DNA of 64,000 bases from an uncultured Erysipelotrichaceae bacterium (GCA_902789425.1 CADANX010000001.1:16206-80205), one strand, 5' to 3'. Positions 1,724 through 28,893 are shown, counted from the stretch's first letter. Made by a program: numbers and translations. Notes: generated from the letters alone by a model not told the origin.

Positions 1724-2689
1724 ATGGCAGGATCAATTACACATACTTATTTTTCAAAAGATATTTATTCAAAATTAGATACAAATACTAAAGCAATTAT
1801 TGAAAATTCTAAGGAAAGTTTTAAAACATTTAATCAAGGATTTGACGTATTATTCTTTGCTGGTAAAAAGTATAAAAAATTAGGAAATTATTTTCATCAA
1901 AATAATACTCAATTATTCTTTTTAAATCTTGTTAATTATATAAGAAAGAATAATTTAAAAGGAAATCCAGAAGTAATGTCATTCTTATATGGACTTATAT
2001 GTCATTACTCTCTTGATTTAAATATACATCCTTATGTTATTTATAAATCTGGTTATTTTGATAGAAGCAAAAAAGAAACTTGGAAATATAAAGGTAACCA
2101 TTCAGAAATGGAAAGTTATATAGATGCTTATTTAATTGAACAAAACGAGAATATAAAAGCATATGAACTAGATCCAGGTAAATTTTGTTTTGATTATGTA
2201 AATTTATCTGATGATATTATTAAAATGATTGATAGCGTATTTTTAAGTACATATAATAAAAAGAATATTGGTAAAAAATATGAAAAAGGAATAAAGAAAA
2301 TGAAATTCTTATATTCTTTACTTAGATACGATAAAAAAGGAAAGAAAAAGAAATTTTATGAATTTTTAGATAATAAATTTCCTAGCAAAAATATGAAATA
2401 TTCACCTATTTCTTATTATATTAATTTAAATAAAAATTATTTTTACTTAAATTTAGAACATAGAAAATGGTGTCATCCAATGGATAAAAAAGAAACATAT
2501 ACTTATTCTTTTGAAGATATATATAAAAATGCTATGAAACAAGCAATAGCACTTATTAATGTAGTTAATGAGGTTATCTATTATAATAAAACTTCTAATT
2601 ACTTAAAAAAATTCTTTAAAAATACATCTATGGTTTCTGGAAAAGAAATTGGAGAAAAGAAAGAATATAAATATTTTGAATTTAAATAA
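1724..2689 (+). CDS. hypothetical protein, possibly zinc-dependent phospholipase C-like fold
   Basis: 321 aa. The N-terminal GSITHTYF and the later CHYSLDLNIHPYV His/Asp pattern resemble the Zn_dep_PLPC family. This is recalled, not searched. Confidence 0.4.
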   Translation: MAGSITHTYFSKDIYSKLDTNTKAIIENSKESFKTFNQGFDVLFFAGKKYKKLGNYFHQNNTQLFFLNLVNYIRKNNLKGNPEVMSFLYGLICHYSLDLNIHPYVIYKSGYFDRSKKETWKYKGNHSEMESYIDAYLIEQNENIKAYELDPGKFCFDYVNLSDDIIKMIDSVFLSTYNKKNIGKKYEKGIKKMKFLYSLLRYDKKGKKKKFYEFLDNKFPSKNMKYSPISYYINLNKNYFYLNLEHRKWCHPMDKKETYTYSFEDIYKNAMKQAIALINVVNEVIYYNKTSNYLKKFFKNTSMVSGKEIGEKKEYKYFEFK

Positions 2690-5099: not shown

Positions 5100-5627
5100 T
5101 TATTTGAGGTATCTATCAATAAGTTCTTTTATAGCAAATTTGTACTCTATATCACTTGTTTTAGTATCTTCATTCTCAATTAAACAAAGCGGTGGAAATA
5201 ATACACACCAAAAGTTATTACCATCTCCTTTACCAAGAGTAATAACAAGAGATTCATATGTACCACTTTTATATCTTATTCCCTTATATTTTTTACTAGG
5301 AAAATAGTTTTTACCATATTTTATAGTATATTTTTGATTATAATTAAGCTCTTTTAACTTATTATTTACTATTTGATCAATGTTTTTCATGTTATTTTTA
5401 ATTATATTACGGCTTTCATCTATTGTTTTACTATCATTTAATAGACTAAGTAATTTGTTTTCTACTTCATTTCTAATAATAATTTTAACATTTTGATCAT
5501 CAATACTATTAGAATTTGCAATAATTCTAAATCTAATTGCTTCATCTGGTATTATGTTTTCCTGTTTATAACTATTTATATATAATGTAATACTTATAAT
5601 TAATGCTATTAATAGCATTTTTTTCAT
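5100..5627 (-). CDS. spoIIR: stage II sporulation protein R
   Basis: 175 aa with a signal/TM N-terminus and the motif EAIRFRIIANSNSIDDQNVK typical of SpoIIR. It sits next to prmC-prfA as in Bacillus. Confidence 0.85.
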   Translation of the reverse strand: MKKMLLIALIISITLYINSYKQENIIPDEAIRFRIIANSNSIDDQNVKIIIRNEVENKLLSLLNDSKTIDESRNIIKNNMKNIDQIVNNKLKELNYNQKYTIKYGKNYFPSKKYKGIRYKSGTYESLVITLGKGDGNNFWCVLFPPLCLIENEDTKTSDIEYKFAIKELIDRYLK

Positions 5628-10080: not shown

Positions 10081-12006
10081 GTGAAAAAGAATAAATTTTT
10101 ATTAAAATTATTTATTATTAATATGTTTTTACTGTGCATATTTTTTTCCTTATTATATATATATGTAAAATCTACACCTAAACTTGATTTAAAAAAAACT
10201 AATAACATTATTATATATGATAAAAATAATAAACCATTTTTCAAAGGAAATGGATCTAAAGAATGGGTAGAACTTAAAAATATAAGTAATAACTTAATAG
10301 ATGCTACTATTTCTACTGAAGATAAAAGGTTTTACTCGCACAATGGATTTGATTATATAAGAATTATTAAATCAATTTTTAATAATATTAAAAATAAATC
10401 TATAGTAGAAGGTGGTTCTACAATTACACAGCAATATGCAAGGAATCTATATCTTTCATTTGATAGAAATTTTAATAGAAAAATAAAAGAAGCATTTCTT
10501 GCATTTAAGATGGAAATTAATTATCAAAAGAATGATATTTTAGAAGGATATTTAAATACAATAAACTATGGTAATGGAATATTTGGAATACAAAATGCCG
10601 CTAAATATTATTTTAATAAAGATGCTAAAGATTTAAATTTAGCAGAAAGCTCTATGCTAGCAGGTATTCCAGGTTATCCACAAGAATATTCACCTATAAA
10701 TAATTTAAAAAACGCTAAAAAAAGACAAAAACTAATACTAAATACAATGGTTAAGAACAAATACATTACAAAAGATGAAGCAAACCTAGCATATAATGCA
10801 AAACTAATCCTATATGGCAAAAAAGATAAACTAAATCTAACAACACTAATGTATTATAAAGATGCTGTGATGAATGAACTAAATGATCTAAATGTAATAC
10901 CTAAAGATTATATTGAAAATAATAATATTAAAATATACACTAATCTAGATTTAGATGCTCAAAAGAAATTAGATGAAGCAATAAATATAAATATGAATAA
11001 TACAACTCTTGAAGTGTCTAGTGTAATGATAGAGAATTACACAGGAAAAATAATAGCTCTTGCAGGTGGTAAAGATTATGAAAACAGCCAATTTAATAGA
11101 GCTGTATTATCTAAAAGACAAGTTGGATCAACTATGAAACCCCTCCTTTACTATACAGCACTAGAAAATGGTTTAACTCCTTCTTCTACTTTTTCTTCTG
11201 AAAACACTAATTTTAATATAAATGAATCAGAAACATATTCACCGCATAATTATGCAAATATGTACGCTAATAGGCAAATACCAATGATACTTGCAATACC
11301 TTATTCTGATAATATATATGCTGTTAAAACTCATTTATTTATAGGAAAAAACATGCTAGTTAATACAGCTAAAAAATTAGGAATAAAAGATGATATAAAA
11401 AATAATGCATCATTGCCACTTGGAACATCCGAATTAAAAATGATAGACTTTATAAATGCATATAGTACAATCGCAAGTGAAGGCATATATAGTTCTCCAT
11501 ATTTAATTAGAAAAATAAAAGATAAAAATAATAAAAATTTATATAAACATAATGATTATAAAGAAAAAATATTAAACATTAATTATACATACATTTTAAG
11601 TGAATTATTAAGTAATTGTTATGATAGCACATTGATTGATTATAGTGCACCAACATGTTTAAGCATAAGACCTAAACTAACAAATAAATATGCTATTAAA
11701 ACCGGAAGTACAAATACTGATTCTTGGACAATAGGATATAACAAAAACACAACATTAGGTGTTTGGATAGGTTATGATAATAACAAAAAATTAGATAAAT
11801 CCGATTCAAAATATTCTAAAAATATATGGGCAGATACTATGGAAAATTATTTTAGAAATAAAGATAGTTTATGGTATGAAAAACCAAAGGATGTGGTTCC
11901 TGTATTAGTTAATCCTATTAATGGTAAAATTGCTACTGGTAAATCAAATAAAAAGAAAATTGTTTATTACTTAAAAGGTACTGAACCTGAAGAATATGAT
12001 AAATAA
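10081..12006 (+). CDS. class A penicillin-binding protein (glycosyltransferase plus transpeptidase)
   Basis: 641 aa with a GTG start and an N-terminal TM segment. GT51 motifs EDKRFYSHNGFD and GGSTITQQ are present, as is the transpeptidase SxxK motif within QVGSTMKP. Confidence 0.9.
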   Translation: MKKNKFLLKLFIINMFLLCIFFSLLYIYVKSTPKLDLKKTNNIIIYDKNNKPFFKGNGSKEWVELKNISNNLIDATISTEDKRFYSHNGFDYIRIIKSIFNNIKNKSIVEGGSTITQQYARNLYLSFDRNFNRKIKEAFLAFKMEINYQKNDILEGYLNTINYGNGIFGIQNAAKYYFNKDAKDLNLAESSMLAGIPGYPQEYSPINNLKNAKKRQKLILNTMVKNKYITKDEANLAYNAKLILYGKKDKLNLTTLMYYKDAVMNELNDLNVIPKDYIENNNIKIYTNLDLDAQKKLDEAININMNNTTLEVSSVMIENYTGKIIALAGGKDYENSQFNRAVLSKRQVGSTMKPLLYYTALENGLTPSSTFSSENTNFNINESETYSPHNYANMYANRQIPMILAIPYSDNIYAVKTHLFIGKNMLVNTAKKLGIKDDIKNNASLPLGTSELKMIDFINAYSTIASEGIYSSPYLIRKIKDKNNKNLYKHNDYKEKILNINYTYILSELLSNCYDSTLIDYSAPTCLSIRPKLTNKYAIKTGSTNTDSWTIGYNKNTTLGVWIGYDNNKKLDKSDSKYSKNIWADTMENYFRNKDSLWYEKPKDVVPVLVNPINGKIATGKSNKKKIVYYLKGTEPEEYDK

Positions 12007-12008
12007 AA

Positions 12009-12034
12009 AAGTAGATATTAATCTCTATCTACTT
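12009..12034. terminator. bidirectional terminator between the PBP gene and the ParB-family gene
   Basis: Stem AAGTAGAT (12009-12016) / ATCTACTT (12027-12034) with flanking A and T runs. It overlaps the stop of the minus-strand gene. Confidence 0.6.
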
Positions 12035-13073
12035 TAACTACAAATTGAATTTCATTTTGAAAATCATATTCTTCTAATTTTGCATTAAAACCAATTGATT
12101 CAAGTTCTTTAATTAATGAATTCATTTTATCTTGAACTTGTTCAATACTCTTATTCATTTTAGTTGTAAATGGTAATACTTTATCATTTAATTGAGCAGG
12201 TTTTGGTTCAACTACTGCATCTGTATTAACATTACTTAATAAGTCATCTTGTTCAAGTACAGGTTTAATATAAGGAATTGGATTTTTATTATTATCATCT
12301 AGAATTGGTTTAATAAAATCATCATTTTTTGTAACTTCCTCAGGTGCTGTATTTATACTAGGAATAATTTTATCAAAATCAAATATTCCTTTATCAAAAT
12401 TATCATCTTTAATTTCTACTTTAGGCATAGTATTTAAATTTAAATCTACAGGTTTTACTTCTGTTTGATTTAATTTATCACTAATAGCACTTTCTGTATC
12501 TTTAACATTTAATTTATTATTTATAATTGTATTTAACATTTCTATTTGTTCTGATGGATTACTAAGTCTAAGTAAACTTCTTGCATGTCTTTCACTTATT
12601 TTATTATTTAAAAGTGCATCTTGAACTTCATCTGTTAAATTTAATAATCTTAATTTATTTGATACTGTTGCTTGAGTTTTACCCATTCTATTTGCAAGTT
12701 GATCTTGTGTTAAATATCCTCTGTCAAGTAATTTTTTATATGATTTAGCCTCTTCTATTGGACTTAAATCTTTTCTTTGTAAATTTTCAACTATTGCTAC
12801 TTCTGCTGATTCATTATCATTTAAATCAATTATAATAGCAGGTACTTTTGTAAGACCAGCAATATATGATGCTTTAAATCTTCTTTCACCAGCTATTATT
12901 TCAAATTTATTTCCAACTTTTCTAAGTACTAGAGGTTGGATTATACCATGTAATCTAATTGATTTTGCTAGTTCATTTAAAGAATCTTCATCAAATGTAA
13001 GTCTTGGCTGAAACCTATTAGGTATTATATCTTCTAAAGAAACTTCAACTATTTCTTTTTCAATTTCTCCCAT
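12018..13073 (-). CDS. noc: ParB-family protein, Noc-type (nucleoid occlusion protein-like) with a long internal linker
   Basis: I prefer the start MGEIEKE (13073), preceded by AGAGAGGT. Motifs are PNRFQPR, GERRFKAS, the HTH GKTQATVSNKLRLL, ISERHARSL and NVKDTES, plus a Noc-like C-terminal end. It lies directly downstream of rsmG, where noc sits in Bacillus. Confidence 0.75.
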   Translation of the reverse strand: MGEIEKEIVEVSLEDIIPNRFQPRLTFDEDSLNELAKSIRLHGIIQPLVLRKVGNKFEIIAGERRFKASYIAGLTKVPAIIIDLNDNESAEVAIVENLQRKDLSPIEEAKSYKKLLDRGYLTQDQLANRMGKTQATVSNKLRLLNLTDEVQDALLNNKISERHARSLLRLSNPSEQIEMLNTIINNKLNVKDTESAISDKLNQTEVKPVDLNLNTMPKVEIKDDNFDKGIFDFDKIIPSINTAPEEVTKNDDFIKPILDDNNKNPIPYIKPVLEQDDLLSNVNTDAVVEPKPAQLNDKVLPFTTKMNKSIEQVQDKMNSLIKELESIGFNAKLEEYDFQNEIQFVVKVDRD

Positions 13074-13135
13074 AATCAAACCTCTCTTCTTATTCTTTTA
13101 CTCTTATATATAATAATACAATAAAAATCCATTTT

Positions 13136-13843
13136 TTACAATGGATTTTTTTTAATTTTATCAAAATTCCTAGGATACTTAGTACTTGTTTTTGATATTT
13201 TTTTTATTTTTACAAGGTTTCTTACAGAGTTTTCAATTGGTAATTTAAACGATATTACTTCCTCAATTTTGCTATTTAATAAATTAAGTGAATTCTTTGA
13301 TAGTTCTAATTCTTCTTCTACAGTTGCTTTCATTGGTATAAAATATCCATTTACTTTAACTAGAGGAATACATAATTCATTTAATATATTTAATTTAGCT
13401 ACTGCTCTAGATGTAACAACATCAAATTCTTCTCTATGATTCTTAGAAAATAGTTCAGCTCTATCATGAATTACTTCTATATTTTTTAAATCTAATTCTT
13501 TTATTACTTCTTTTAAAAATACAACTCTTTTCTCAAGTGCATCCACAAGAGTTATTCTTAAATTAGGAAAAAATATTTTCAATACAAGTCCTGGAAAACC
13601 AGCTCCTGTCCCTATATCGCATAAAGTTAATTCTTTATTTAAATCAATTGCTTTTGATAGCGTAACAGAATCATAAAAATGTTTTAAATATACATCTTCT
13701 TTTTCTGTAATAGATGTAAGATTAATCTTGTTATTCCAAGATACTAATAACTCATAGTACTTTTCTAATTTTTCTTCTATATCAGAATTTAATTCAATAT
13801 TTATTTTTTTTAATTTCTCTGAAAATAATTCCCTATTCATCAA
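13136..13843 (-). CDS. rsmG: 16S rRNA (guanine527-N7)-methyltransferase
   Basis: 235 aa, GidB-like, with the SAM motif [10 protein letters not shown]. It lies downstream of mnmG. Confidence 0.92.
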
Positions 13844-22736: not shown

Positions 22737-24095
22737 ATGATAGATATTAAAACAAATTCAAGAAAAGTAAAAGAAGGAGATACATTTATTGCAATTAAGA
22801 ATGTTAATACAGATGGACATGACTTTATAGAAGATGCAATTAAAAATGGAGCTAAAAAAATAATATGTGAAAAGGGGAATTATCCTGTTGAAACAGTAAT
22901 AGTTCCAGATACTAAAAAATATTTAAATGAATACTTATATGAAAATTATTATCCTAAATTTAAAGATATGAAATTAATTGGTGTAACAGGAACAAATGGT
23001 AAAACAACAACTTGTTATTTAATATTTCAATTGTTGAATAAATTAAATATTAAATGTGCTTATATAGGAACAATTGGTTTTTATTATAATGATGTTAAAA
23101 AAACATTAAATAATACAACGCCTGATACTGACTTACTTTATGAAATGTTTTTAGAAGCAAAAGAAAATGGATGTGAATGTGTAGTAATGGAAGTAAGTTC
23201 ACATGCTCTTGATAAAAATAGAATATATGGACTTGAATTTGATGAAGTAGCATTTACAAATCTTACACAAGATCATTTAGATTATCATAAAACTATTGAT
23301 AATTATATTAAAGCAAAACAAATATTATTTGAAAAAACTAGAAATGATAAAATAGCAATAATTAATGGTGATGTAGAATTCCATGAAAAATTCATTAATA
23401 AGAATAATAAAAATATAATTATAAGTGATACAAAAGGGGACTTACTTATAAAAGATATGAAGTTTAATATTAATAGTACTGATATTAAATTTAGCTATAA
23501 CAATAATGATTATGAAGTTACTACTAATATGGTTGGAAGATATAATGTTTATAATTATTTAACTTCACTTTTATTAATTGAAAATTTAGGTGTTGATATA
23601 AATAAAATTATAGATATAACAAAAGAAATTAAAGCACCAGATGGTAGAATGGAATGTATTCATTATAATAACAATAGTATTTTTATTGATTATGCACATA
23701 CACCAGATGCTGTTTTAAATGTATTAAATAGTGCAAAAGAATATAAAAAAGGTAAGATAATAACAATAATAGGTTGCGGTGGAGATAGAGATAGAACTAA
23801 AAGACCTATTATGGGAAATATAGCTGAAGAAAATTCTGATTTTGTAATATTAACTAATGATAATCCAAGAACAGAAGATGAAAAACAAATTATGAATGAT
23901 ATATTAGAAGGTATTAAAAAAGATAATCATATTGTTATTCATGATAGAAAAGAAGCTATAGAAAAAGGTATTGATATGCTTAATAAAAATGATATATTAA
24001 TGATTCTTGGAAAAGGTCATGAAGATTATCAAATAATTGGAACAGAAAAAATTCATTTTAGTGATAAAGAGGTTGTAGAAAATTATATAAAATAG
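22737..24095 (+). CDS. murE: UDP-N-acetylmuramoyl-L-alanyl-D-glutamate--2,6-diaminopimelate ligase
   Basis: 452 aa with the P-loop VTGTNGKTTT and a DNPR motif (LTNDNPRTED). DNPR is associated with meso-DAP specificity. Confidence 0.92.
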   Translation: MIDIKTNSRKVKEGDTFIAIKNVNTDGHDFIEDAIKNGAKKIICEKGNYPVETVIVPDTKKYLNEYLYENYYPKFKDMKLIGVTGTNGKTTTCYLIFQLLNKLNIKCAYIGTIGFYYNDVKKTLNNTTPDTDLLYEMFLEAKENGCECVVMEVSSHALDKNRIYGLEFDEVAFTNLTQDHLDYHKTIDNYIKAKQILFEKTRNDKIAIINGDVEFHEKFINKNNKNIIISDTKGDLLIKDMKFNINSTDIKFSYNNNDYEVTTNMVGRYNVYNYLTSLLLIENLGVDINKIIDITKEIKAPDGRMECIHYNNNSIFIDYAHTPDAVLNVLNSAKEYKKGKIITIIGCGGDRDRTKRPIMGNIAEENSDFVILTNDNPRTEDEKQIMNDILEGIKKDNHIVIHDRKEAIEKGIDMLNKNDILMILGKGHEDYQIIGTEKIHFSDKEVVENYIK

Positions 24096-24102
24096 GTGGG
24101 TT

Positions 24103-24591
24103 ATGAGTAAATATAGAATAAATAATGTTGATAAATTTATAAAATTTATTATTCCTTTATTTGCCGAAAACTGCAACATGATTGAGATACAAAATAATAG
24201 GGATGCCATTATTTATTTTACTCATGGCGGTTGCTATGAATTTGCTAAGGCAATTAAACATTTTTTTAAAACTTCAAAATTTGTAATAAATAATAATAAT
24301 GATCATATTGCTATATTATACAATGGTGAAATATATGATGCATATAATTACTTATCAGAAGAAGAATTATTTAACTTAACTGTACATAATGATGATATAC
24401 ATAAAATTTTAACGAAATTTGAAATAATTAATGAAGATGAAATTGAAAAATACAATAATTTTGGAATGAATATAAAAATAGAAGATAAAAGTATCGATAA
24501 ATGGATAATAGATGAAATTAATGATATTGAAAGTATAGAGGTTTATGATGAAAACATTAAAACAATTAAACGTACAATTACTTATAAATGA
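24103..24591 (+). CDS. hypothetical protein inserted between murE and murF
   Basis: 162 aa, preceded by GGTGGG. Its 3-prime end overlaps the murF start by about 47 nt. No family was recognised. It contains HGGCYEFAKAI ... DHIAILYNGEIYDA. Confidence 0.55.
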   Translation: MSKYRINNVDKFIKFIIPLFAENCNMIEIQNNRDAIIYFTHGGCYEFAKAIKHFFKTSKFVINNNNDHIAILYNGEIYDAYNYLSEEELFNLTVHNDDIHKILTKFEIINEDEIEKYNNFGMNIKIEDKSIDKWIIDEINDIESIEVYDENIKTIKRTITYK

Positions 24592-25936
24592 GTTTAATGC
24601 AAAAATCATTTATGGAAATGAATCAGAAACATTAGAAAATTTTTCTAAAGATACAAGAGAAATAAAAGAAAATGATGTTTATGTTGGAATAAAAGGTGAA
24701 AACTTTGATGGTAATTTATTTTATGAAGATGCATTTAACAAAGGTGCTAAAATAGCAATTTTAGAAAAAAAATCAATTGATGAAGATAATATTAAAAAAT
24801 ATGATAATAAAACAGTTATATTAGTTGATAACTCAATTGAATTACTTCAAAAATTAGCTAATTATAAAATTAAAAATTCTAATGTTAAGGTAGTTGCTGT
24901 AACAGGTAGTGTAGGTAAAACAAGTACTAAAGATATAGTTTATAATACAATTAAAACTAAATATAGAGTAATCAAAACAGAAGGTAATTTAAACAATCAC
25001 TTAGGATTACCATTAACAATACTTAGATTAAAAGATGAAGAAGTAATTGTACTAGAAATGGGAATGAATCACTTTAATGAAATAAGTATACTTAGTAAAA
25101 TAGCTATGCCTGATATAGCAATAATAACAAATATTGGTACAGCTCATATAGGTAACTTAGGTTCAAGAGAAAATATTCTAAAAGCTAAACTTGAAATTTT
25201 AGATGGAATGAATAATGGTACTTTAATAATTAATAATGATAATGATTTATTACATGAACATTTAGATGAAATTAAAAAGAAAACTAATGTAATAACAGTA
25301 GGAATAGACAATAAAAGTAATTATAATGCGACTAATATTGTGGATAATGTTTTTTCATCTGAATTTAAAATAAATAATAATGATTTTAAAATAAATGTTG
25401 GCGGAAAACCTTTTATATATAATAGTTTAGTATCTTATGCTGTGGGAAAACTACTTAATATAGACGATAAAGATATTATAAAAGGTATTAAAGAATTTAA
25501 ACTTTCTAATAATAGAATGGAACTTATAAATATTAATGGATATACATTAATAAATGATACATATAATGCAAGTTATGATTCAGTAATAGCAGCTATTGAT
25601 CTAGTATCTAAATCAAATTATAAAAGAAAAATACTTATATTAGGTGATATATTAGAACTTGGTGAATTTAGTTCAAAAATACACGAAGACATTGGAAAAT
25701 ATATAATAAATAAAAATATAACAAGTGTTATTTTAATAGGAAATGAAGTAAATAACATAAAAAAAGTACTAGAAAATAATAAATTTAATGAAATTTACTC
25801 ATTTAAGTCTGAAGAATTATCATATAATTTTTTAGATGAATATTTAAGTAAAGATGATATAGTTTTAATAAAAGGATCTCATGGAATGAATCTTATCAAC
25901 ATAGTTAATTATTTAAAAACATCAAAAAGTGAATAA
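24545..25936 (+). CDS. murF: UDP-N-acetylmuramoyl-tripeptide--D-alanyl-D-alanine ligase
   Basis: 463 aa with the P-loop VTGSVGKTSTKD. AGAGGT lies just upstream of the ATGATG start. Confidence 0.93.
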   Translation: MMKTLKQLNVQLLINEFNAKIIYGNESETLENFSKDTREIKENDVYVGIKGENFDGNLFYEDAFNKGAKIAILEKKSIDEDNIKKYDNKTVILVDNSIELLQKLANYKIKNSNVKVVAVTGSVGKTSTKDIVYNTIKTKYRVIKTEGNLNNHLGLPLTILRLKDEEVIVLEMGMNHFNEISILSKIAMPDIAIITNIGTAHIGNLGSRENILKAKLEILDGMNNGTLIINNDNDLLHEHLDEIKKKTNVITVGIDNKSNYNATNIVDNVFSSEFKINNNDFKINVGGKPFIYNSLVSYAVGKLLNIDDKDIIKGIKEFKLSNNRMELININGYTLINDTYNASYDSVIAAIDLVSKSNYKRKILILGDILELGEFSSKIHEDIGKYIINKNITSVILIGNEVNNIKKVLENNKFNEIYSFKSEELSYNFLDEYLSKDDIVLIKGSHGMNLINIVNYLKTSKSE

Positions 25937-26225: not shown

Positions 26226-27593
26226 ATGAATAATAATGAGAAAATATGGAATAATTTTCTAGGCGTAATGAAGTCTAGATTAAATTCTTTATCTTTTAAT
26301 ACTTGGTTTAAAGATACATCATTGTATGAACTTAATAATGGTAAAGCAAAAGTAATTGTTCCAACAACAACTCATAAAAAACATCTTACAGTATCTTATA
26401 TTGATCTAATAGATGAAATATTTGATTCATTAACTGGAACTCACTTTGAATTTGAATTCTTACTTGAAAATGAAATTAATGAAATAAAAAAAGAAGTTGT
26501 TGAAGATTCAATGGATGTTGGTGTTCCTTATTATAGTGCTGAAAAAGCTAATTTAAATAAAGATTATACATTTGATAACTTTATTGTTGGTACATCAAAC
26601 AAATTTGCACAAGCTACAGCACTTGCAGTAGCTGAAAATCCAGGTAAAATGTATAATCCGCTTTTTATATATGGAAATAGTGGACTTGGAAAAACACACT
26701 TAATGCATGCAATTGGTAATTATATTATAAAGAATACTAATTTAAGAGTATTATATGTAACATGTGAACAATTTATCTCTGACTTTTTAGGATTAAATAG
26801 AAGAGAAAAGGATGGAACTAATTTTAATATTGCTGATAGATTTAAAGATAAATATAGAAATATAGATGTTTTAATAATAGATGATATTCAATTTTTAGGA
26901 ACAGCTCCTAAAACACAAGAAGCATTTTTCCACACATATAATGACCTATATGAAGGTAGAAAACAAATAATTATATCATCAGATACTTCTCCAGATGATT
27001 TAAAAAATCTAGAAGATAGACTTAGAACAAGATTTTCACAAGGTTTAACAGTAAATATTTATCCACCAGATAACCAATTAAGAAAAGATATATTATATAA
27101 AAAGATAGAAGCTATGAATTTTGCACAGCATATAAATGATGATGTAATTGAATATATAGCTAATAACTGTCATTCAGATATAAGAAAGCTTGAAGGAGCT
27201 TTAACAAGAGTATGTGCATATTCAACAATATTCTTCCAAGAAGAAATAACACTTGATTTAGCTGTAGATGCTCTTAAAGAAACAATAAGTAAAAGTAATT
27301 TTGTATCCAAAAATGATATAAATAGAATTCAAAGAGTTGTTGCAGAGTATTATAATGTAACAGTTGAAGATTTAAAATCAAAGAAAAGGGTTGCTACAAT
27401 AGCATTTCCAAGGCAAATAGCCATTTATTTATCAAGACAATTAACTGATGAATCCTTTCCAAGAATAGGTATGGAATTTGGAGGAAGAGATCATTCTACT
27501 GTGATACATTCAGTTGATAAAATAGCAAACGAAATAACAACTAACAAACAACTAAGTAAAATAATAGATGAAATAAAGAAAAAATTAGAATAG
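26226..27593 (+). CDS. dnaA: chromosomal replication initiator protein DnaA
   Basis: 455 aa with the Walker A motif GNSGLGKTHL and the C-terminal DNA-binding region FGGRDHSTVIHS. GGGGAGGTGG is the RBS. Confidence 0.98.
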   Translation: MNNNEKIWNNFLGVMKSRLNSLSFNTWFKDTSLYELNNGKAKVIVPTTTHKKHLTVSYIDLIDEIFDSLTGTHFEFEFLLENEINEIKKEVVEDSMDVGVPYYSAEKANLNKDYTFDNFIVGTSNKFAQATALAVAENPGKMYNPLFIYGNSGLGKTHLMHAIGNYIIKNTNLRVLYVTCEQFISDFLGLNRREKDGTNFNIADRFKDKYRNIDVLIIDDIQFLGTAPKTQEAFFHTYNDLYEGRKQIIISSDTSPDDLKNLEDRLRTRFSQGLTVNIYPPDNQLRKDILYKKIEAMNFAQHINDDVIEYIANNCHSDIRKLEGALTRVCAYSTIFFQEEITLDLAVDALKETISKSNFVSKNDINRIQRVVAEYYNVTVEDLKSKKRVATIAFPRQIAIYLSRQLTDESFPRIGMEFGGRDHSTVIHSVDKIANEITTNKQLSKIIDEIKKKLE

Positions 27594-27771: not shown

Positions 27772-28893
27772 ATGAAATTTAGTATAAAAAAAGAAATATT
27801 ATTAGAAAACTTAAATAATGTATCAAAAGCTGTATCATCTAAAAATGTTATACCTGTATTAGGTGGTATAAGATTTAATTTAACAAAGGATGGTTTATAT
27901 TTAACAGCAACTAATAATGAAATAGATATAGAATCATTTATTGAAACAAAACTTATAGATAAAGTAGAGGAATTAGGATCAATAGTTATTCAAGGTAAAT
28001 ATTTGATAGAAATAGTTAGAAAACTACCAAATGGTATTATTAATATAGAAGTAGTAGATGGACTTAAAATAATTTTATACACAGCAAATTCTACATTTAA
28101 TTTAAATGGTATTGATTCTAGTGAATTTCCTAATTTAAAAATTGAAAAGTCTACTAATCCTATAGTATTAAGTAATAAGAATTTAAGAAATATTATTAAT
28201 CAAACAATATTTGCTACATCAACTCAAGAATCAAGACCAATATTAACAGGTATTAATTTTAAAATAGAAAAAGACATTATGGAATGTGTTGCTACAGATT
28301 CTTATAGATTGAGTAAAAAAATAATTAAACTTGATAATACTGTGGATAACATTATTAATATAGTTATTCCATCAAAAAACATTGGTGAACTTATTAAAGT
28401 ACTTGAAGATAATGATGATAAAGTTAATATTCATATATTCTCAAATAAAATATTATTTGAATTTGAAAATATATTATTTCAATCAAGATTATTAAATGGA
28501 AATTTTCCAGATACTTCAAGATTAATTCCAAGTGAGTTTAAATTTACTATTAAAGCTAATTTAAATGAGCTATATGAAGTAATTGATAGAGCATCATTAC
28601 TTACTAGTGAAAAAGATAAAAATGTCATTAAATTTGAGACAAACGGAAATATATTAACAATTAGTTCAAATACACCAGAAATCGGTAAAGTAGAAGAAAA
28701 ACTTGCTATATCTAAAGATAATAGTGAAAATATTAAAATTGCCTTTTCTTCAAAATATATGATGGATGCATTAAGAACTATCACAAGTACTAATGTTGTT
28801 ATATTATTAAATTCTGATATAACACCTATTATTATTAATAATGAAGATGATGATACATTAGTTGAATTATTATTACCAATTAAAACTTATTAA
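27772..28893 (+). CDS. dnaN: DNA polymerase III beta sliding clamp
   Basis: 373 aa, located downstream of dnaA. The sequence is typical for a clamp (SRPILTGINF, LLPIKTY end). AAGGAGGG is the RBS. Confidence 0.96.
   Translation: MKFSIKKEILLENLNNVSKAVSSKNVIPVLGGIRFNLTKDGLYLTATNNEIDIESFIETKLIDKVEELGSIVIQGKYLIEIVRKLPNGIINIEVVDGLKIILYTANSTFNLNGIDSSEFPNLKIEKSTNPIVLSNKNLRNIINQTIFATSTQESRPILTGINFKIEKDIMECVATDSYRLSKKIIKLDNTVDNIINIVIPSKNIGELIKVLEDNDDKVNIHIFSNKILFEFENILFQSRLLNGNFPDTSRLIPSEFKFTIKANLNELYEVIDRASLLTSEKDKNVIKFETNGNILTISSNTPEIGKVEEKLAISKDNSENIKIAFSSKYMMDALRTITSTNVVILLNSDITPIIINNEDDDTLVELLLPIKTY

What the first reader, a model, noticed from the sequence alone, without database searches (positions are those of the whole stretch)
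12009..13135. parS sites are present but soj/parA and a canonical spo0J/parB are missing from the conserved rsmG-noc-soj-spo0J locus
In Bacillus and most Clostridia the order is mnmG-rsmG-noc-soj-spo0J. Here rsmG is followed by one Noc-type gene. After that comes a bidirectional terminator and a convergent PBP gene, with no ParA ATPase and no second ParB. Yet the window holds three consensus parS sites and two consensus NBS sites. One possibility is that the cognate ParB (and ParA) have moved elsewhere in the genome. The other is that this single protein, with its mixed Q/K/N/R specificity set, serves both site types. A single protein handling both parS-type centromere sites and NBS-type nucleoid-occlusion sites would be a compact arrangement that I do not recall being described.
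Basis: inference. Interest (0 to 1): 0.7.

Follow-up and report, generated by a model that had tools for sequence, protein, structure and literature searches.

The report
Noc-type gene; ParB probably encoded elsewhere
The lone ParB-like gene after rsmG is an ordinary-specificity Noc-type protein that should bind the NBS sites, and the parS sites almost certainly serve a normal ParB (Spo0J) encoded outside this 64-kb window, so the proposed two-in-one protein is unlikely.

Summary
The window has one ParB-family gene (12018-13073, minus strand) after mnmG-rsmG, followed by a convergent class A PBP gene. There is no Soj/ParA and no second ParB in the 64 kb or in 10 kb further left. Three tandem parS sites and two NBS sites are present.

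The dual-specificity reading is not supported.
- The protein lies on the Noc side of the ParB/Noc split (bootstrap 200/200; best solved-structure matches are Noc).
- Its Q-K-N-R set is not "mixed". Published mutagenesis shows Q173 and R201 are the two NBS-switching residues, one lysine at 179 or 184 suffices, and parS binders always keep R173.
- All 81 orthologues carry Q-K-x-R, including relatives with soj and a canonical spo0J next to the gene or moved across the origin.
- NBS sites are enriched around these genes in relatives.
- Relatives carry arrays of 2-13 perfect parS sites in the same gyrA-dnaX interval.

The ancestral block after noc holds essential genes absent here, so it must lie elsewhere. 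That favours relocation of soj-spo0J, but I could not search the whole genome.

Separately, the whole clade lacks Noc's N-terminal membrane-targeting helix and has a long disordered linker.

The parts
12018..13073 (-). Noc-type ParB-family gene, 351 aa. Domains: ParB_N CTPase domain (GERRFKA), HTH domain with Q-K-N-R at the four specificity positions, a roughly 100-aa disordered linker (aa 205-306), and a small helix plus two-strand C-terminal domain. It has no N-terminal amphipathic helix and no ParA-binding motif.
   Evidence: Pfam ParB_N and HTH_ParB. Best NCBIfam model is TIGR04285 nucleoid_noc at 281 bits, below its 315 cut-off. Best solved-structure matches are Noc 7NG0, 7NFU and 7OL9. 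NJ split from Spo0J has 200/200 bootstrap support. AF2 model. N-terminus analysed.
12008..12035 (.). A/T-rich 10-bp hairpin between the convergent PBP and noc-type genes. It overlaps the noc stop codon. A U-run follows it on the minus (noc) strand.
   Evidence: Fold energies -9.6 and -10.3 kcal/mol, z-scores -3.7 and -2.3. Not found by the G+C-dependent terminator scan.
13136..13843 (-). rsmG (gidB), directly upstream of the noc-type gene.
   Evidence: Pfam GidB, 2e-54.
10081..12006 (+). Class A penicillin-binding protein gene, convergent with noc. It occupies the place where soj-spo0J sit in the ancestral order.
   Evidence: Pfam Transgly and Transpeptidase. Same neighbour in relatives L091, L092 and L218.
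35037..35052 (.). NBS site, 16/16 match to TATTTCCCGGGAAATA, starting 3 bases after the gyrA stop codon.
   Evidence: The same 16-mer is the commonest G+C-containing palindrome in relatives' loci.
35051..35066 (.). Second NBS site, 15/16, overlapping the first by 2 bases.
   Evidence: The same pair (a perfect site plus a CCTGGG variant) follows gyrA in relative L110.
35638..35653 (.). parS site 1, 16/16, in the tadA-dnaX intergenic region.
35665..35680 (.). parS site 2, 15/16 (last base G).
35690..35705 (.). parS site 3, 16/16.
   Evidence: Arrays of 2-13 parS sites lie in the same gyrA-dnaX interval in 11 related loci.

Best explanation
The gene at 12018-13073 is the clade's orthologue of noc, the Firmicute paralogue of parB. 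It is not a hybrid.

Shown: its position after rsmG, its place in the tree, and its residues Q173, K179 and R201.

Inferred from published mutagenesis: it loads as a CTP-dependent clamp at the NBS palindromes, such as the pair at 35037-35066, and does not recognise parS.

Inferred: the three tandem parS sites at 35638-35705 are the origin-proximal centromere for a separate canonical Spo0J/ParB, probably with Soj, encoded outside this window.

Inferred from synteny: a rearrangement with a breakpoint exactly between noc and soj carried away the ancestral downstream block (soj-spo0J ... ychF ... rpsF-ssb-rpsR ... rplI-dnaB). It brought a PBP-argS-prfA-prmC-spoIIR segment next to noc.

Open: how this Noc variant acts after binding DNA. 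The whole clade lacks the N-terminal membrane-targeting helix that canonical Noc needs.
For: Noc lineage:
- NJ tree of the ParB_N and HTH core separates {B. subtilis Spo0J + 6 relatives' second ParB} from {B. subtilis Noc + window + Noc-type orthologues} in 200/200 bootstraps.
- The top three solved-structure matches are Noc (196-218 bits) against 172 bits or less for Spo0J/ParB.
- TIGR04285 minus TIGR00180 score is +108 bits here. It is +154 for B. subtilis Noc and +32 for B. subtilis Spo0J.
- The ParA-binding motif is absent in 81/81 Noc-type orthologues and present in 6/6 Spo0J-type proteins.

Specificity:
- The residues are Q-K-N-R, and Q-K-x-R is invariant in 81 orthologues.
- Jalal 2020 reports that Q173 reads A1 and R201 reads C6 of NBS, that one K at 179 or 184 suffices, and that parS binders always have R173.

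Cognate sites:
- There are 18 NBS sites (1 mismatch or fewer) in 1.34 Mb of relatives' loci against 0 in shuffles. There are 0 parS sites in the same loci.

Co-existence with canonical ParAB:
- Q-K-S/T-R Noc-type genes sit beside or near soj and a spo0J with R..G/S in L064, L215, L023, L047, L066, L068 and L076.

parS is a maintained clade feature:
- Eleven low-GC loci with GyrA 55-75% identical to the window's carry 2-13 perfect parS sites in the gyrA-dnaX interval.

Relocation:
- The order rsmG-noc-PBP-argS-prfA-prmC-spoIIR is shared by relatives at 57-75% identity.
- The ancestral block after noc contains essential genes that are absent from the window and its extension.
Against: - No Spo0J or Soj of this species was actually found. 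Only about 74 kb around the origin could be read. A protein-database search seeded with a relative's Spo0J returned only close relatives of the seed, all 74% identical or more.
[quoted passage not shown] It is N, S, G, T or A across the clade.
- The protein scores below NCBIfam's Noc cut-off (281 against 315).
- It lacks the N-terminal amphipathic helix that is essential in B. subtilis Noc, so canonical nucleoid occlusion is not established.
- DNA binding was not tested. The specificity prediction transfers results obtained in a Caulobacter ParB scaffold.
Confidence: 0.78

Rival explanations
1. This is the only ParB-family protein in the genome, and it binds both parS and NBS. It would act as centromere binder and as Noc at once.
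For: No second ParB or ParA in 64 kb plus 10 kb around the origin. Both site types are present in the window and lie about 570 bp apart. In relative L110 an NBS pair sits inside a parS array. Residue 184 is not the Noc lysine.
Against: Q173 and R201 are the NBS-switching residues. parS binders invariably keep R173, and dual binders mostly have T/S at 201. The same Q-K-x-R set occurs in relatives that have their own canonical Soj-Spo0J, so it is not an adaptation to being alone. There are no hybrid sites (TATTTCACGTGAAATA or TGTTTCCCGGGAAACA) in the window. The protein lacks the ParA-binding motif.
Confidence: 0.05
2. Spo0J and Soj were lost from this lineage. The three parS sites are decaying relics with no binder.
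For: There are only three sites here, one imperfect, against up to 13 in relatives. Loss of ParA is known in Staphylococcus aureus and Streptococcus pneumoniae (PMC7142367).
Against: Two of the three sites are perfect 16-mers with a CACGTG core in a 24% G+C genome. The array lies in the same interval as in relatives 55-75% identical in GyrA, which argues for selection. Strains of the species are 100% identical over the region, so that comparison gives no information either way.
Confidence: 0.06
3. The site partition is as in the best explanation, but the Noc-type protein is not a nucleoid-occlusion factor. Without a membrane-targeting helix it would be an NBS-loaded CTP clamp with another role, for example origin-region organisation or gene regulation. 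Alternatively it reaches the membrane or a partner through a motif in its linker.
For: All 81 orthologues have a stop codon 12-25 codons upstream of IIPNRFQPR, so none can carry the Noc N-terminal helix. That helix is essential and 'extremely' conserved in studied Noc proteins (PMC4331003). The linker is 100-400 aa and disordered. It holds a recurring F-rich motif: NKFFNFLEDE in many relatives and GIFDFDKII in the window. The window motif is the hydrophobic-moment maximum of the linker, 0.58 against 0.43 for the B. subtilis Noc helix. NBS sites lie in the noc promoter region in L030 and L056 and next to parS arrays.
Against: NBS density in relatives' loci, about 1 per 75 kb, is similar to the roughly 70 sites I recall for the 4.2-Mb B. 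subtilis chromosome (my own knowledge). The linker motif is acidic, which does not favour binding to anionic membranes. AF2 predicts no helix there. Nothing here tests function.
Confidence: 0.35
4. The 'NBS pair' at 35037-35066 is only the gyrA transcription terminator hairpin and not a protein-binding site.
For: The two overlapping palindromes fold into a 13-bp hairpin of -18.5 kcal/mol (z-score -5.0) directly after the gyrA stop codon.
Against: No U-run follows it on the gyrA strand, and the terminator scan finds nothing. The identical 16-mer occurs as single sites at other positions in 18 relatives' loci against 0 expected. It equals the published NBS consensus.
Confidence: 0.08

Closest known systems
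Bacillus subtilis Noc (YyaA) with its NBS sites
   Same: Same gene position after rsmG. Same ParB_N, HTH and small C-terminal domain architecture. Same Q173, K179 and R201. Same 16-bp site TATTTCCCGGGAAATA in the genome. No ParA-binding motif. 49% identity over the core. Noc structures are the best solved-structure matches.
   Different: No N-terminal amphipathic membrane-targeting helix. N instead of K at position 184. A roughly 100-aa disordered linker, up to about 400 aa in relatives. Below the TIGR04285 cut-off.
Staphylococcus aureus: Noc plus Spo0J without Soj
   Same: It is a Firmicute precedent for an incomplete ParABS set that coexists with Noc. S. aureus has no ParA/Soj but has Spo0J and Noc (PMC7142367). 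From my own memory, unverified here, its spo0J is not adjacent to noc.
   Different: S. aureus Noc keeps the N-terminal helix (sequence recalled from memory). Whether this organism has Soj or Spo0J at all is not yet shown.
Bacillus subtilis Spo0J/ParB with parS
   Same: The window's parS sites match the Firmicute parS consensus exactly and lie origin-proximal, about 10-13 kb from dnaA/oriC. Relatives' second ParB has R173, G/S201 and the LG[KR]GL motif, like Spo0J.
   Different: The window's own protein is not of this type. The parS sites here and in relatives are tight tandem arrays with 25-40 bp spacing and up to 13 copies. From my own knowledge, B. subtilis parS sites are dispersed single sites.
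Noc-type plus Soj-Spo0J loci of related uncultured gut Bacilli (L064, L215, L023 group)
   Same: The Noc-type proteins are orthologous: 59-65% identity in the core, Q-K-S/T-R, no membrane-targeting helix, and the same C-terminal domain.
   Different: Those genomes show soj-spo0J within 10 kb, either adjacent or across rnpA. In the window's subclade the neighbour is PBP-argS-prfA-prmC-spoIIR.

Membership tests
Noc (nucleoid occlusion protein, TIGR04285) | ParB-type fold: ParB_N CTPase domain with a GERR box, plus the ParB HTH domain | tested here: met
   PF02195 at 8e-32 and PF17762 at 1e-34. GERRFKA is present.
Noc (nucleoid occlusion protein, TIGR04285) | Falls on the Noc side of the ParB/Noc duplication | tested here: met
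   NJ split supported 200/200. The top solved-structure matches are Noc.
Noc (nucleoid occlusion protein, TIGR04285) | Specificity residues Q173, K179, K184 and R201 | tested here: inconclusive
   The residues are Q, K, N and R. Three of four are met. By Jalal 2020 one lysine suffices, but K184 is 'almost invariably' K in known Noc proteins.
Noc (nucleoid occlusion protein, TIGR04285) | Curated family score cut-off | tested here: not met
   281.4 bits against a cut-off of 315. Only model positions 1-199 of 255 align. B. subtilis Noc scores 373 and B. subtilis Spo0J 258.
Noc (nucleoid occlusion protein, TIGR04285) | N-terminal amphipathic membrane-targeting helix, essential for function in B. 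subtilis | tested here: not met
   The protein starts about 8 aa before the first strand. An in-frame stop lies just upstream in all 81 orthologues. The requirement is reported in PMC4331003.
Noc (nucleoid occlusion protein, TIGR04285) | Cognate NBS sites present in the genome | tested here: met
   Two sites in the window. 18 sites in relatives' loci against 0 expected. The genome-wide distribution and sparing of the terminus cannot be tested here.
Noc (nucleoid occlusion protein, TIGR04285) | Binds NBS and not parS; CTP-dependent spreading and membrane recruitment | not testable with these tools
   Needs ChIP-seq, EMSA and localisation experiments.
Chromosomal ParB/Spo0J (parS-binding centromere protein) | R173 and small residue (G/S/T/C) at 201 | tested here: not met
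   Q173 and R201. parS-specific variants invariably have R173.
Chromosomal ParB/Spo0J (parS-binding centromere protein) | N-terminal ParA-binding motif (L/F/I)G(K/R)G(L/F/I) | tested here: not met
   Absent in the window protein and in 81/81 orthologues. Present in 6/6 relatives' Spo0J. The motif definition is from PMC12704722.
Chromosomal ParB/Spo0J (parS-binding centromere protein) | Adjacent parA/soj gene | tested here: not met
   No Soj-like ORF in the window or in L084.

The most novel reading that the evidence does not exclude
The genome truly has no second ParB-family gene, and this helix-less Noc-type protein loads at both the NBS pair and the neighbouring parS array. One CTP clamp would then serve as centromere binder and as Noc, against the specificity rules derived from the Q173/R201 mutagenesis.
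Probability: 0.05. Interest if true: 0.7.

Novelty: new variant of a known kind. Interest (0 to 1): 0.27.

Why it matters
As posed, the finding matters little. A noc gene separated from soj-spo0J is a synteny break, and incomplete ParABS sets are already known in Firmicutes. Q-K-N-R is what published rules predict for an NBS-only binder.

Two points may interest specialists.

First, a large clade of uncultured, very low-G+C gut Bacilli carries a Noc orthologue that keeps NBS-type specificity residues and perfect NBS sites. It has lost the N-terminal membrane-targeting helix, considered essential for nucleoid occlusion, and the K184 lysine. It has gained a long disordered linker with a conserved F-rich motif. 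This gives a natural test of whether Noc function needs that helix, or whether the membrane or partner contact can sit elsewhere in the protein.

Second, the same clade keeps unusually dense tandem parS arrays, up to 13 sites, in the gyrA-dnaX interval. In some members NBS sites lie inside or beside the array.

Tried and rejected
- Hybrid binding sites. I searched for TATTTCACGTGAAATA and TGTTTCCCGGGAAACA, which a mixed-specificity protein might prefer. None was found beyond the NBS itself.
- Pseudogene remnants or divergent ParA/ParB in the window. An unfiltered HMM search of all six frames found nothing better than E=0.11 for ParB or 0.45 for Soj.
- Walking along the contig. One step left of the window (L084) shows murA, rpmE, rpiB, spoIID, an M23 peptidase, mreB/mbl, a glycosyltransferase, a LytTR two-component pair, agrB, csp and hpf. 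There is no ParA or ParB. The right end runs into rpoB, so I did not extend it. Further walking is blocked by the look-up rules.
- Finding this species' Spo0J in the protein database. I queried with the Spo0J of relative L064. All 120 listed hits are 74% identical or more to the query, so they are its own relatives. None could be tied to this species.
- A near-coincidence in contig length (44,035 against 44,036 bp) between a Spo0J hit and a Noc-type hit turned out to be two different contigs.
- Same-species contigs covering gyrA-dnaX are 100% identical over 771 bases, so they say nothing about selection on the sites.
- The deep-mutational-scanning table of Jalal 2020 is not among the held supplements. 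The measured phenotype of Q-K-N-R itself could not be read.
Spo0J could therefore not be searched in the related reference genomes.

Full report
**What is there.** The window is about 24% G+C and spans a replication origin. GC skew changes sign near 22 kb. dnaA is at 26226-27593 and dnaN at 27772-28893.

Leftward from the origin, on the minus strand, lie rnpA, yidC, jag, mnmE, gpsA, an acetyltransferase, murD, an HD protein, mnmG, rsmG and then a single ParB-family gene. Its ORF is 12018-13079. The likely ATG at 13073 follows a GAGAGG ribosome-binding site and gives 351 aa.

The next gene is a convergent class A PBP at 10081-12006. Between the two genes is a 10-bp A/T-rich hairpin. A U-run follows it only on the noc strand. 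The G+C-dependent terminator scan does not report it.

**Absence of partners.** tblastn with B. subtilis Soj, Spo0J and Noc finds only this one ParB-family gene.

An unfiltered profile search of all six frames of the window plus 10 kb further left gives 1e-111 for this gene. Everything else scores E=0.11 or worse for ParB and E=0.45 or worse for Soj.

- Three tandem parS sites lie at 35638, 35665 and 35690 (16/16, 15/16, 16/16). Chance expectation is 0.05. They sit between tadA and dnaX.
- Two overlapping NBS sites lie at 35037 and 35051 (16/16 and 15/16). They sit between the gyrA stop codon and the SRP RNA gene.

**Which paralogue is it.**
- The protein has ParB_N and HTH_ParB domains.
- Its best NCBIfam model is the Noc model TIGR04285 at 281 bits, below the 315 cut-off. 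As calibration, B. subtilis Noc scores 373 and B. subtilis Spo0J 258. Relatives' Noc-type proteins score 281-295 and relatives' Spo0J-type proteins 227-241.
- The three best matches among solved structures are Noc (7NG0, 7NFU, 7OL9), ahead of every Spo0J/ParB.
- A neighbour-joining tree of the 211-column core puts B. subtilis Noc, the window protein and its orthologues on one side. B. subtilis Spo0J and the relatives' second ParB fall on the other side, in 200 of 200 bootstraps.
- The C-terminal roughly 45 residues resemble the Noc C-terminus (G-x-x-x-K-L-E-E-x-D-F ... Q-x-x-[VI]-K-[VI]). AF2 folds them as a helix plus two strands after a disordered stretch at 205-306.
- The ParA-binding motif (L/F/I)G(K/R)G(L/F/I), as defined in PMC12704722, is absent here and in all 81 orthologues. 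It is present in all six relatives' Spo0J-type proteins.

**Is Q-K-N-R a mixed set?** No. Jalal et al. 2020 (PMC7383237) report the following.
- NBS differs from parS at two positions per half-site.
- R173Q lets the protein read A1 of NBS, and G201R lets it read C6.
- Both switches work only if a lysine is present at 179 or 184 "or both".
- parS-specific variants "have an invariable R at position 173".
- Dual-specificity variants mostly carry T or S at 201.

Q-K-N-R has both switching residues and one permissive lysine, so the published rules predict an NBS-only binder. The N at 184 does depart from known Noc proteins, where this position is "almost invariably a lysine". The measured value for Q-K-N-R itself could not be read because the table is not among the held supplements.

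**Relatives.** The family is large and comes from uncultured gut and rumen Bacilli. Records label them variously Bacilli, Tenericutes, Mollicutes or Erysipelotrichaceae, for example Clostridium sp. CAG:433, Coprobacillus sp. CAG:605 and Firmicutes bacterium CAG:321.

In 80 reference-genome loci plus the window, every orthologue has Q-K-x-R: 64 N, 11 S, 3 G, 2 A and 1 T at position 184.

Six of those loci also hold soj and a second ParB with R-x-x-G/S.
- In L064 the order is the ancestral noc-soj-spo0J.
- In L023, L047, L066, L068 and L076 the soj-spo0J pair has moved to the other side of rnpA and points the other way.
- A further relative, L215, shows the full ancestral order: dnaA | rpmH rnpA yidC jag mnmE mnmG rsmG noc(Q-K-S-R) soj spo0J DUF951 ... 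ychF ... rpsF ssb rpsR ... rplI dnaB.

The Q-K-x-R protein thus normally coexists with a canonical ParAB pair in this clade. Its residues are not an adaptation to being the only ParB.

**The sites in relatives.** TATTTCCCGGGAAATA is by far the commonest G+C-containing palindrome in the relatives' loci.
- There are 18 sites with at most one mismatch in 1.34 Mb, against none in shuffles.
- Twelve of them lie about 4-5 kb upstream of the noc-type gene. Two lie in its promoter region, in L030 and L056.
- There are no parS sites within 10 kb of noc in any relative.

A scan of metagenome contigs for tandem parS sites returned 11 low-G+C loci whose GyrA or DnaX match the window's. GyrA is 55-75% identical. 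Each carries 2-13 perfect parS sites in the same gyrA-dnaX interval.

In L110 an NBS pair, one perfect site and one CCTGGG variant as in the window, lies inside the parS array just after gyrA.

Both site types are therefore long-maintained features of the clade. The parS array in particular implies a working parS binder.

**Where did soj-spo0J go?** The order rsmG-noc-PBP-argS-prfA-prmC-spoIIR seen in the window recurs in relatives whose Noc-type protein is 57%, 70% and 73% identical (L218, L092, L091). The breakpoint is old and lies exactly at the noc|soj junction.

The ancestral downstream block contains genes that no bacterium can lose: rpsF, ssb, rpsR, rplI and dnaB. None of them is in the window or its 10-kb extension. 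The block must therefore be elsewhere in the genome, and soj-spo0J most likely went with it. This step is an inference.

I could not find the species' own Spo0J.
- The tools give only 10 kb around a known protein.
- The database search seeded with L064 Spo0J listed only its close relatives.

**Verdict on the interpretation.** "One protein for both sites" is disfavoured, at about 0.05. A third possibility, recent loss of Spo0J with relic parS sites, is about 0.05.

Precedent for incomplete or dispersed ParABS sets next to Noc exists. S. aureus has Noc and Spo0J but no Soj (PMC7142367).

**Found in passing.** The clade's Noc orthologue cannot carry the N-terminal amphipathic helix. In all 81 genes an in-frame stop lies 12-25 codons upstream of the IIPNRFQPR motif. 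B. subtilis Noc has 37 residues there, including the helix.

Adams et al. 2015 (PMC4331003) report three relevant points. The helix is extremely conserved. It was predicted in all Noc homologues they examined. Deleting 10 residues abolishes membrane binding and function.

In place of that helix, these proteins have a 100-400 aa acidic, low-complexity linker. AF2 gives pLDDT of about 30 for it.

The linker holds a short F-rich motif.
- In many subclades it reads NKFFNFLE(D/N)E-x-(A/V)-N-M-N.
- In the window it reads GIFDFDKII.

The window motif is the hydrophobic-moment maximum of the linker, 0.58 against 0.43 for the B. subtilis Noc helix.

The motif might be a relocated membrane anchor or a partner-binding peptide, or it might mean nothing for function. 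None of these was tested. The held literature did not turn up a description of such helix-less Noc proteins, but that search was shallow.

Because a defining feature of Noc was tested and not met, I file the protein as a Noc-lineage variant. I do not file it as an established nucleoid-occlusion factor.

**Scores.** As posed, the finding is mostly explained by known biology and scores low. The helix-less Noc variant and the dense parS arrays add modest specialist interest.

Noticed in passing
window 12018-13073 (protein aa 1-20 and 205-306); L001-L080 orthologues: All 81 Noc-type orthologues lack the N-terminal amphipathic membrane-targeting helix of canonical Noc. They carry a 100-400 aa disordered acidic linker with a recurring F-rich motif. 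In the window it is GIFDFDKII at about aa 228-236; in many relatives it is NKFFNFLEDE-x-x-NMN. It may be a relocated membrane or partner contact.
   Followed up: partly
L095, L108, L110, L127, L128, L141, L151, L159, L184, L189, L199 (gyrA-dnaX interval); window 35638-35705: Relatives carry dense tandem arrays of 2-13 perfect parS sites, 25-40 bp apart, in the same gyrA-dnaX interval. L199 has 13. In L110 an NBS pair lies inside the array.
   Followed up: partly
L022, L024, L028, L031, L035, L040, L043, L045, L046, L050 at about 5.6-5.95 kb; L027 and L029 nearby; L215 4950; L030 4389; L056 9824: A perfect or near-perfect NBS recurs about 4-5 kb upstream of the noc-type gene in 12 relatives. 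In L215 it lies in the mnmE-mnmG interval. In two relatives an NBS lies about 100-150 bp upstream of noc itself, which hints at autoregulation. The window has no NBS at either place.
   Followed up: no
window 22737-25936: The usual rpmH-dnaA adjacency is interrupted by three plus-strand genes: a Mur ligase (murE-like, 22737-24095), a phage YunG-like protein (24103-24591) and a second Mur ligase (24545-25936). This leaves two candidate oriC gaps, at about 22.4-22.7 kb and 25.9-26.2 kb.
   Followed up: no
window 28955-29425: A ComK-family gene (Pfam 8e-45) sits between dnaN and recF. This is an unusual place for a competence regulator.
   Followed up: no
window 5100-5627; L084 12188-13798: Sporulation genes are present: spoIIR in the window, and spoIID with an M23 peptidase just left of it. 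BofA lies near recR in L088. The lineage has 24% G+C, and some records label its relatives 'Tenericutes' or 'Mollicutes'. It also has PBPs and Mur ligases, so it is a walled, probably spore-forming Bacilli lineage.
   Followed up: no
window 1724-2689: A zinc-dependent phospholipase C homologue (PF00882, 3e-12) is present. This is the family of clostridial alpha-toxin. It is conserved in all same-species contigs seen.
   Followed up: no
window 35128-35223 and 35200-35637: The small SRP RNA gene (Rfam 54.9 bits) overlaps the mechanical GTG start of the tadA ORF. The real tadA start is the ATG at 35228. The -10 box of a strong promoter-like site at 35102-35130 (11/12 match) ends two bases into the RNA gene.
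   Followed up: no
L084 16009-19431 (left of the window): A LytTR response regulator, a histidine kinase, a 37-aa ORF and AgrB lie about 6-9 kb beyond the window's left end. Together they look like an agr-type quorum-sensing cassette. A LytTR-regulator/kinase pair (240-261 aa followed by 431-437 aa) also lies about 5.5-7.5 kb downstream of the noc-type gene in L023, L047, L066, L068 and L076.
   Followed up: no
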